Source of the DNA: Escherichia coli | GTDB lineage: Bacteria > Pseudomonadota > Gammaproteobacteria > Enterobacterales > Enterobacteriaceae | Length of the DNA: 64,000 nt | NCBI RefSeq assembly: GCF_044324785.1 | Contig: NZ_CP172127.1 | Reading direction: 5' to 3' (one strand) | Shown here: one piece after another, positions 40,624 through 41,807 of the stretch | Position numbering within the stretch: the stretch's first letter is position 1 | How the letters are laid out: every line of letters starts with the position of its first letter | The notes under the pieces: generated by a model | Databases searched by the model: none | What the model was told of the DNA's origin: nothing | The model's input: the letters and a program-made list of their open reading frames with translations, nothing else | Translations under genes and position numbers: made by a program

Positions 40624-40749
40624 TCGCTTCTCCACACCGTTGCCGCGTTGTGCATTCGGCTTTGCGAGTCTGCTCCAGAAAATAAATCAAAGTCAGATCA
40701 ATGCGTTGTGTTTATTTAATGGGGATTTACGATGGCAGGGCAGCATGGG

Positions 40750-40898
40750 GCTGTAACGGTAAAGCCCTCACCGAAGCGAGGGCTTGAAGGAGAAGGGTTA
40801 TGATGCGACTTGTCATCATACTGATTGTACTGTTACTCATAAGTTTCCCAGCTTATTAACAGTCAGTCTCAGGGGAGGAGTCATCCTCCCTTACCCTT
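40750..40898 (-). ncRNA. sibC: antisense antitoxin sRNA SibC (ends approximate)
   Basis: Reverse-strand promoter-like TTGACA (40929-40934), 17-nt spacer, TAATTT (40906-40911), just outside the ibsC stop; Sib RNAs are fully antisense to ibs ORFs; ends inferred. Confidence 0.5.
40800..40859 (+). CDS. ibsC: type I toxin IbsC (19-aa hydrophobic peptide)
   Basis: ATG 40800; translation MMRLVIILIVLLLISFPAY; SD gaaggag upstream; in the serA-ygfA gap where K-12 has sibC/ibsC. Confidence 0.75.
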   Translation: MMRLVIILIVLLLISFPAY

Positions 40899-40959
40899 AC
40901 TCACTAAATTAGGTTAAAGAATCAACGATGTCAATCAGGGCGATGCAGGTGTGTCGCCC

Positions 40960-41580: not shown

Positions 41581-41765
41581 AGGGAATCTCCGAGATGCCG
41601 CCGCAGGCTGTAACCCTTGAACCCTTGGTTCAAGGTGAATGTGTCGTCGCAGTTTTAAGGCTTCTCGGACGGACCGAGCATGCTCACCAACCGCGGAGCG
41701 CCACATTCTTGTGGTATGAAATATCGGCTCAGGGGACTGGCCCGCTTGCGAACATCTCAGAGAAA
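41581..41765 (-). ncRNA. ssrS: 6S RNA
   Basis: Reverse complement reads ATTTCTCTGAGATGTTCGCAAGCGGGCCAGTCCCCTGAGCCGATATTTCATACCACAAGAATGTGGCGCTCCGCGGTTGGTGAGCATGCTCGG...GGAGATTCCCT, which I recognise as E. coli 6S RNA. Confidence 0.9.
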
Positions 41766-41807
41766 TTTTGTCTTCACGGTTACTCTACCACAGTAAACCG
41801 AAAAGTG

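What the first reader, a model, noticed from the sequence alone, without database searches (positions are those of the whole stretch)
40740..40935. ibsC/sibC type I toxin-antitoxin locus in the serA-ygfA gap
A 19-codon ORF (MMRLVIILIVLLLISFPAY) with a good SD lies on the forward strand, and a sigma70-like promoter (TTGACA, 17-nt spacer, TAATTT) on the opposite strand is placed to drive an antisense RNA across it. This matches the known Ibs toxin / Sib antitoxin architecture. The ORF track missed it because of its size.
Basis: partly seen in the sequence, partly recalled or inferred. Interest (0 to 1): 0.4.

Follow-up and report, generated by a model that had tools for sequence, protein, structure and literature searches.

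The report
Known E. coli ibsC/sibC toxin-antitoxin locus

Summary
The observation and the interpretation both hold. A 19-codon ORF (MMRLVIILIVLLLISFPAY) lies at 40800-40859 (+), with an AAGGAG Shine-Dalgarno 7 nt upstream. On the minus strand, TTGACA-17 nt-TAATTT (40934-40906) sits 7 nt upstream of the position that aligns with the annotated K-12 SibC 5' end.

- **Rfam:** SIB_RNA (RF00113) matches 40784-40934 (-) at 136.5 bits, against a gathering score of 56.
- **K-12 comparison:** the annotated 141-nt K-12 sibC maps to 40758-40898 (-) at 136/141 identity, in the same place between serA and fau (ygfA).
- **Distribution:** the region occurs in 5,425 of 5,426 complete E. coli genomes, and PGAP names the identical peptide IbsC.
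- **Structure:** the predicted SibC fold reproduces the published architecture, and paralogue covariation supports it.

The one feature of mild interest is allelic. The window differs from K-12 by a three-base change (AGC to CCA, 40848-40850). This makes IbsC S17P and changes SibC nucleotides 49-51 from GCU to UGG. Han et al. 2010 mutated exactly this triplet, in the TRD1 recognition loop, to retarget SibC to ibsD. The proline allele is common in E. coli, not rare. TRD2 is unchanged, and non-cognate paralogues remain mismatched at TRD1. Verdict: already known, low interest.

The parts
40800..40859 (+). ibsC coding sequence: 19 codons plus stop, MMRLVIILIVLLLISFPAY. It matches K-12 IbsC at 18 of 19 residues (S17P).
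   Evidence: PGAP annotates the identical CDS as ibsC in strain N3.
40787..40792 (+). Shine-Dalgarno AAGGAG for ibsC, 7 nt upstream of the ATG
   Evidence: Lies inside the target of SibC TRD2.
40740..40898 (+). ibsC mRNA as defined in K-12 (159 nt): the +1 lies 18 nt outside the SibC 3' end. The 3' end is the in-vitro construct boundary, not a mapped end.
   Evidence: Transferred from Han et al. 2010 (PMC2943612). The window is identical to K-12 over 40665-40847. Folds at -63.1 kcal/mol, z = -5.0.
40706..40733 (+). Putative weak ibsC promoter, TTGTGT-16 nt-TACGAT, ending 6 nt before the transferred +1
   Evidence: Read from the sequence. This is inference: the paper's figure with the promoter boxes was not available as text, and the scanner did not call the site.
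40758..40898 (-). sibC antitoxin RNA, 141 nt, with +1 = A at 40898. It is antisense to the whole ibsC ORF and its ribosome-binding site.
   Evidence: 136/141 identical to annotated K-12 sibC b4446. Folds at -55.3 kcal/mol, z = -4.9.
40906..40934 (-). sibC promoter: -35 TTGACA (40934-40929), 17-nt spacer, -10 TAATTT (40911-40906)
   Evidence: One spacer base differs from K-12, at 40915.
40784..40934 (-). Rfam SIB_RNA (RF00113) match. It includes 36 nt of promoter DNA and omits most of the terminator hairpin.
   Evidence: 136.5 bits, gathering score 56, E = 5.4e-28, full model length.
40831..40853 (-). SibC TRD1 (nt +46 to +68; P5 loop at 40844-40851). It pairs within the ibsC ORF and contains the allelic triplet at 40848-40850 (SibC 49-51, UGG here, GCU in K-12).
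   Evidence: Coordinates. TRD definition from PMC2943612.
40784..40800 (-). SibC TRD2 (nt +99 to +115, including single-stranded J1/7). It pairs with the ibsC SD and start codon and is identical to K-12.
   Evidence: PMC2943612.
40762..40785 (-). SibC terminator hairpin (P7), followed by a UACC tail
   Evidence: Compensatory changes occur across paralogues at five of its pairs.

Best explanation
The region is the chromosomal type I toxin-antitoxin locus ibsC/sibC of Escherichia coli.

- **Toxin side:** the plus strand carries a weakly transcribed mRNA of about 160 nt. Its only product is IbsC, a 19-residue hydrophobic inner-membrane peptide. When over-made, IbsC depolarises the membrane and stops growth.
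- **Antitoxin side:** the minus strand carries a strong promoter that produces the 141-nt SibC RNA. SibC is perfectly complementary to the ibsC ribosome-binding site and the entire ORF.
- **Recognition:** SibC finds the mRNA through two independent exposed elements. TRD1 (the P5 loop) pairs inside the ORF, and TRD2 (the single-stranded J1/7) pairs with the SD and start codon. Pairing then spreads, translation initiation is blocked, and the duplex is degraded, with RNase III cleaving it.
- **What is shown here:** sequence identity, synteny, the covariance-model match, the fold and the covariation.
- **What is taken from K-12 experiments:** transcription, toxicity, repression, TRD function, RNase III cleavage and NAD-capping of the +1A transcript.
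- **What is inferred for this strain:** that all of this transfers to the window's allele (IbsC S17P, SibC 49-51 UGG).
For: - Rfam SIB_RNA match at 136.5 bits against a gathering score of 56.
- 436/450 identity to the K-12 serA-fau intergenic region, with annotated sibC and ibsC mapping onto 40758-40898 (-) and 40800-40859 (+).
- Identical synteny.
- Present in 5,425 of 5,426 complete E. coli genomes and annotated ibsC by PGAP.
- The SibC minimum-free-energy fold reproduces published P1, P2, P5, P6, J1/7 and P7, with z = -4.9.
- 10 of 42 consensus pairs keep pairing through changes on both sides across 11 Sib sequences.
- The promoter pattern is unique in the window, with 0.03 expected.
- Mechanism from the literature: PMC2943612, review PMC8309996, PMC12956327, PMC4447067.
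- The C-terminus SFPAY of the window peptide is the same as in K-12 IbsB, and IbsE also has P17.
Against: - No expression data exist for the source strain.
- The generic promoter scanner called neither promoter.
- The S17P peptide itself has not been tested for toxicity in anything I could read, and mutagenesis work reports that C-terminal residues matter for IbsC toxicity.
- The profile-HMM check of the peptide could not be run, because 19 residues is below the tool's minimum.
Confidence: 0.96

Rival explanations
1. The locus is ibsC/sibC by descent, but the proline allele encodes an attenuated or inactive toxin, so only the RNA pair persists.
For: Residue 17 differs from the experimentally studied K-12 IbsC. 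Mutagenesis summarised in PMC8309996 says residues 6-19, including the C-terminus, are needed for toxicity.
Against: - Proline at position 17 is native to K-12 IbsB (SFPAY, the same C-terminus) and to IbsE, which is annotated as a toxic peptide.
- The exact 65-nt allele is intact in 939 genomes, and P17 also occurs in other lineages such as O157 and 2013C-3264.
- Hydrophobicity is unchanged: GRAVY 2.40 against 2.44.
- Position 17 varies freely among paralogues: S, P, Q, A, H.
Confidence: 0.03
2. A chance short ORF and chance promoter-like hexamers in an intergenic spacer, with no function.
For: Short ORFs are abundant by chance, and the promoter scanner found nothing.
Against: - The covariance-model match has E = 5e-28.
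- The region is near-universally conserved in E. coli.
- Paralogues show covariation.
- The exact promoter pattern is expected 0.03 times per window.
- The orthologous K-12 locus has been characterised experimentally.
Confidence: 0.005
3. SibC in this lineage has altered target specificity, cross-reacting with ibsD/ibsE or failing on foreign ibsC alleles, because its TRD1 triplet is UGG rather than GCU.
For: The changed bases are exactly G49-C50-U51, which Han et al. altered to UGC to let SibC pair with ibsD. The window's UGG is one base from SibD's UGC.
Against: - Against K-12 ibsD the contiguous match through TRD1 rises only from 12 to 14 nt.
- Against the ibsD-like and ibsE-like copies of a strain identical at this locus it is 10-11 nt. 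The engineered retargeting needed a 22-bp helix.
- TRD2 is identical to K-12, and either TRD alone suffices for repression.
- Toxin and antitoxin are encoded by the same base pairs, so cognate pairing is automatically preserved.
Confidence: 0.02

Closest known systems
E. coli K-12 sibC (b4446) / ibsC (b4665)
   Same: - Same chromosomal site between serA and fau (ygfA).
- Same 141-nt RNA length and ends by alignment, and the same promoter hexamers and +1A.
- Same SD, identical TRD2, identical terminator, and 18 of 19 peptide residues.
- Same ibsC upstream region.
   Different: - Three adjacent bases at 40848-40850 give IbsC S17P and SibC 49-51 GCU to UGG, in the TRD1 loop.
- Two bases in the P2 loop (40881-40882, UUGC to UGAC).
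- One base in the sibC promoter spacer (40915).
- All variant RNA positions lie in predicted loops.
Paralogous pairs sibD/ibsD, sibE/ibsE, sibA/ibsA and sibB/ibsB (the former QUAD repeats)
   Same: Same architecture, the same structure with compensatory changes, and the same peptide pattern MM(K/R)..II....L..SF.AY.
   Different: They share only 60-75% RNA identity with the window copy, sit at different chromosomal sites as tandem pairs, and diverge at TRD1 and TRD2, which is what confers cognate specificity.
Other chromosomal type I toxin-antitoxin systems (hok/sok, ldr/rdl, tisB/istR-1, shoB/ohsC, zorO/orzO)
   Same: A small hydrophobic membrane toxin is repressed by an antisense RNA that blocks translation and triggers mRNA decay.
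   Different: In Ibs/Sib the antitoxin spans the entire functional mRNA (TIR plus ORF). In the others it covers only a 5' or 3' segment or is encoded in trans. There is no sequence similarity to them.

Membership tests
Sib RNA (Rfam RF00113, SIB_RNA) | Scores at or above the curated gathering threshold of the covariance model over its full length | tested here: met
   136.5 bits against 56, model positions 1-147 of 147, E = 5.4e-28
Sib RNA (Rfam RF00113, SIB_RNA) | RNA of about 140 nt encoded antisense to, and spanning, a complete ibs ORF and its ribosome-binding site | tested here: met
   40758-40898 (-) fully covers SD 40787-40792 and ORF 40800-40859 (+)
Sib RNA (Rfam RF00113, SIB_RNA) | Conserved secondary structure: P1 closing stem, P2, P5 loop, P6, single-stranded J1/7, terminator | tested here: met
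   The MFE fold matches the published domains with z = -4.9. 10 of 42 pairs have compensatory changes across 11 sequences.
Sib RNA (Rfam RF00113, SIB_RNA) | Abundant, constitutively made transcript from its own promoter | not testable with these tools
   The promoter sequence is conserved. Expression is shown only for K-12 in the literature.
sibC/ibsC orthologue specifically, as opposed to another Sib paralogue | Location between serA and fau (ygfA), and highest identity to K-12 sibC | tested here: met
   Synteny rpiA-serA-[locus]-fau-ssrS-zapA. 96.5% identity to SibC against 60-75% to SibA, B, D and E.
Ibs toxin family | 18-19-residue, highly hydrophobic peptide with the family pattern, preceded by an SD | tested here: met
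   MMRLVIILIVLLLISFPAY has GRAVY 2.40 and matches IbsC at 18 of 19 residues. PGAP names the identical protein WP_071525914.1 IbsC.
Ibs toxin family | Match to a curated protein-family profile (Pfam or NCBIfam) | not tested
Ibs toxin family | Over-expression causes membrane depolarisation and growth arrest | not testable with these tools
   Shown for K-12 IbsC (S17) according to PMC8309996. Not shown for the P17 allele.
Type I toxin-antitoxin system | The antitoxin is an RNA that base-pairs with the toxin mRNA and represses its expression | tested here: inconclusive
   Complementarity is perfect by construction, and TRD2 and the SD target are identical to K-12. Repression itself is known only from K-12 experiments.

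The most novel reading that the evidence does not exclude
Natural E. coli lineages carry different 'keys' at this locus, and these may have functional consequences.

- The TRD1 loop triplet varies (UGG/Pro17 here, GCU/Ser17 in K-12, and other states in paralogues).
- The roughly 75 nt holding the ibsC promoter exists as sharply different haplotypes.

If these differences matter, lineages would differ in basal toxin expression. With TRD2 compromised, they would also differ in which SibC can silence which ibsC. That would amount to diversifying selection on a chromosomal type I toxin-antitoxin recognition loop.
Probability: 0.1. Interest if true: 0.3.

Novelty: already known. Interest (0 to 1): 0.07.

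Why it matters
It matters little beyond correct annotation. The locus shows that a reader working from raw sequence can recover a 19-codon gene and its antisense RNA, both of which ORF-length filters miss. PGAP annotated only the CDS, not the sRNA, in the strain N3 record examined. The modest scientific point is that the window's difference from K-12 falls exactly on the experimentally defined specificity triplet of SibC TRD1, which is also codon 17 of the toxin. This illustrates how a cis-encoded pair can change its recognition loop without ever breaking cognate pairing.

Tried and rejected
- **Generic promoter/terminator scan:** it found neither the sibC nor the ibsC promoter, nor the SibC terminator. 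I explained this by the scanner's thresholds (-10 matches 3 of 6; only three U after the hairpin) rather than treating it as negative evidence, and checked the exact promoter pattern against shuffles instead.
- **Rare or novel allele:** rejected. The exact 65-nt allele is in 939 of 5,422 genomes, and Pro17 also occurs in other lineages.
- **Cross-talk with ibsD/ibsE from the TRD1 change:** rejected. Contiguous matches stay at 10-14 nt.
- **Gene conversion from a paralogue as the source of CCA:** not supported. No K-12 or N3 paralogue carries CCA at codon 17; they have CCC, CCG, CAG, GCA and CAC.
- **Further Sib copies in the window:** none at the gathering threshold.

Full report
**Observation.**
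- The ORF ATGATGCGA...GCTTATTAA occupies 40800-40859 on the plus strand and encodes MMRLVIILIVLLLISFPAY.
- An AAGGAG Shine-Dalgarno lies at 40787-40792, 7 nt upstream of the ATG.
- The mechanical ORF lister has a 20-aa floor. It returned only out-of-frame ORFs over these bases, so the gene is invisible to length-filtered ORF calling.
- On the minus strand, TTGACA (40934-40929), a 17-nt spacer and TAATTT (40911-40906) are present.
- That exact pattern occurs once in the window, against 0.03 expected from dinucleotide-preserving shuffles.
- The generic promoter scanner reported no site, because TAATTT matches TATAAT at only three positions. I treat this as a threshold effect.

**Identity.** Several independent lines agree.
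- Rfam's SIB_RNA model (RF00113) matches 40784-40934 (-) over its full length at 136.5 bits, against a gathering score of 56, with E = 5.4e-28. The only other Rfam hit in the window is 6S RNA at 41583-41766 (-).
- The 386-nt intergenic region has a match in 5,425 of 5,426 complete E. coli genomes. It is 100% identical in six of the listed records, and PGAP annotates the CDS under it as 'type I toxin-antitoxin system toxin IbsC'.
- The gene order is rpiA, serA, [locus], fau (ygfA), ssrS, zapA, ygfB, pepP. This is the K-12 order, inverted.
- Aligned to K-12 MG1655, the region is 436/450 identical.
- The annotated 141-nt sibC (b4446) maps to window 40758-40898 (-) at 136/141 identity, and ibsC (b4665) maps to 40800-40859 (+).
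- The SibC 5' end falls on the A at 40898, 7 nt downstream of the -10 hexamer.
- The window copy is 96.5% identical to SibC but only 60-75% identical to SibA, B, D and E, so it is the sibC orthologue and not another paralogue.

**Rfam boundaries.** The Rfam hit does not coincide with the RNA. It includes 36 nt of promoter DNA (40899-40934) and omits most of the terminator hairpin (40758-40783).

**Structure.**
- The 141-nt RNA folds at -55.3 kcal/mol, against -35.5 +/- 4.0 for shuffles (z = -4.9).
- The fold has a closing stem (nt 1-6 with 101-106), a 5' hairpin (9-26), a long hairpin with an 8-nt loop at 48-55, a hairpin at 79-100, a single-stranded stretch at 107-113, and a terminator hairpin at 114-137.
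- These correspond to P1, P2, P5, P6, J1/7 and P7 as described by Han et al. 2010 (PMC2943612).
- I aligned 11 Sib sequences: the window, four other E. coli sibC alleles, the four other K-12 paralogues, and two paralogues of strain N3. In that alignment, 10 of 42 consensus pairs retain pairing through changes on both sides, concentrated in the terminator, P2 and the P4/P5 stem.
- The complementary 159-nt ibsC mRNA segment is also strongly structured (z = -5.0).

**Mechanism (from K-12 experiments, transferred by inference).**
- Sib RNAs are about 140-nt antitoxins, and each is antisense to an 18-19-residue hydrophobic Ibs toxin. Ibs over-production damages the envelope and is lethal, and Sib expression represses it (citing Fozo et al. 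2008).
- IbsC depolarises the membrane within minutes and induces the psp operon (PMC8309996).
- SibC recognises ibsC mRNA through two independent domains. TRD1 (+46 to +68, P5 loop) targets the ORF. TRD2 (+99 to +115, J1/7) targets the translation-initiation region.
- Pairing then spreads, RNase III cleaves the duplex, and the mRNA is degraded.
- The ibsC +1 lies 18 nt outside the SibC 3' end, which is window position 40740. The window is identical to K-12 from 40665 to 40847, so this transfer is safe.
- A weak TTGTGT-16 nt-TACGAT promoter ending 6 nt upstream of 40740 is my reading of the sequence. I could not verify it against the paper's figure.
- In window coordinates TRD1 is 40831-40853 and TRD2 is 40784-40800. 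TRD2 covers the SD and the first base of the ATG.
- Further published facts apply to sibC. Sigma-S RNA polymerase binds its promoter region, with temperature-dependent effects (PMC4447067).
- ppGpp and DksA enhance sibC transcription, and a large share of SibC is NAD-capped, which depends on the +1A (PMC12956327). The window retains +1A.
- A 2025 preprint reports that Salmonella IbsA inhibits the Fo sector of ATP synthase. Whether this applies to IbsC is unknown.

**Differences from K-12.** There are three sites within the locus.
1. 40848-40850, CCA here and AGC in K-12. This is IbsC S17P and SibC nt 49-51 UGG instead of GCU.
2. 40881-40882, which changes the P2 loop from UUGC to UGAC.
3. 40915, one base in the sibC promoter spacer.

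All the RNA changes fall in predicted loops.

**The TRD1 triplet.** The first site is exactly the G49-C50-U51 triplet that Han et al. changed to UGC to let SibC pair with ibsD. I therefore tested whether the allele erodes discrimination between paralogues.
- Against K-12 ibsD, the longest contiguous match through TRD1 rises only from 12 to 14 nt.
- Against the ibsD-like and ibsE-like genes of strain N3, whose ibsC locus is identical to the window, it is 10-11 nt. The engineered switch needed a 22-bp helix.
- TRD2 is unchanged, and either TRD alone suffices for repression.

**Allele frequency.**
- The exact 65-nt sequence around the triplet is in 939 of 5,422 genomes.
- Sampling the identity classes showed Pro17 also in the 98.5% and 96.9% classes (2013C-3264 and O157), and Ser17 in the 95.4% and 93.8% classes (K-12 and EC28).
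- From the evenly spaced ranking, Pro17 is probably the majority state. This estimate is approximate, because it rests on one representative per class.
- Codon 17 is the most variable Ibs position across paralogues: S, P, Q, A, H. K-12 IbsB ends in the same SFPAY as the window peptide.

**Verdict.** This is the already known ibsC/sibC type I toxin-antitoxin locus, carrying a common natural allele. Nothing here is surprising to a specialist. The only point worth recording is that allelic variation sits on the defined specificity loop. Interest is low.

Noticed in passing
window 40665-40739: The roughly 75 nt upstream of the ibsC +1, which hold the toxin's weak promoter, exist as sharply different haplotypes in E. 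coli. O157 AR-0429 and 2013C-3264 differ from the window at 15-19 of 76 aligned columns here, but at only 2-4 of 159 in the transcribed core. The window has the K-12 type.
   Followed up: partly
window 40737-40747; locus L007: Strain EC28 carries a third haplotype. It rewrites the first ~8 nt of the ibsC mRNA 5' overhang, the part SibC does not cover, and so changes the predicted 5' hairpin of the toxin mRNA.
   Followed up: no
window 40848-40850 (ibsC codon 17 / SibC nt 49-51): This triplet is the hypervariable spot of the whole Ibs/Sib family: S, P, Q, A and H across alleles and paralogues. It coincides with the TRD1 loop bases shown experimentally to set cognate specificity. In K-12 the ibsC mRNA loop reads UUUCAGCG, which contains a YUNR (UUCA). 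In the window it reads UUUCCCAG, which does not. The SibC loop keeps a YUNR in both.
   Followed up: partly
window 40784-40934 versus 40758-40898: The Rfam RF00113 model boundaries are offset from the real SibC RNA. The model includes the -35 and -10 promoter DNA and lacks most of the terminator hairpin, so Rfam-derived coordinates misplace both ends of the gene.
   Followed up: yes
window 41583-41766 (-): 6S RNA (ssrS) at 139.8 bits, upstream of fau and in the same orientation as sibC. The ssrS-fau unit ends 26 nt before the sibC -35.
   Followed up: no
window 40936-40959 (-): The hairpin GGGCGA-N10-TCGCCC overlaps the fau stop codon and directly abuts the sibC -35 hexamer. It may be the end of the ssrS-fau transcript, but it has no U-tract.
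   Followed up: no
locus L001 and window 40758-40898: In the RefSeq (PGAP) record of strain N3 that I examined, ibsC is annotated as a CDS but no sibC ncRNA feature appears. The curated K-12 record has both.
   Followed up: no
E. coli collection searches: One Sib/Ibs-like match lies on a plasmid. One of 5,426 complete genomes has no match to the locus, and four lack the core 65-mer.
   Followed up: no
locus L010 514-573 and 890-949: In strain N3 the two Ibs genes between hldE and yqiK encode MMKLVIILIVLLLVSFQAY and MMKLIIILIVLLLISFHAY. Neither is identical to K-12 IbsD or IbsE, and PGAP names them only 'Ibs family toxin'.
   Followed up: partly
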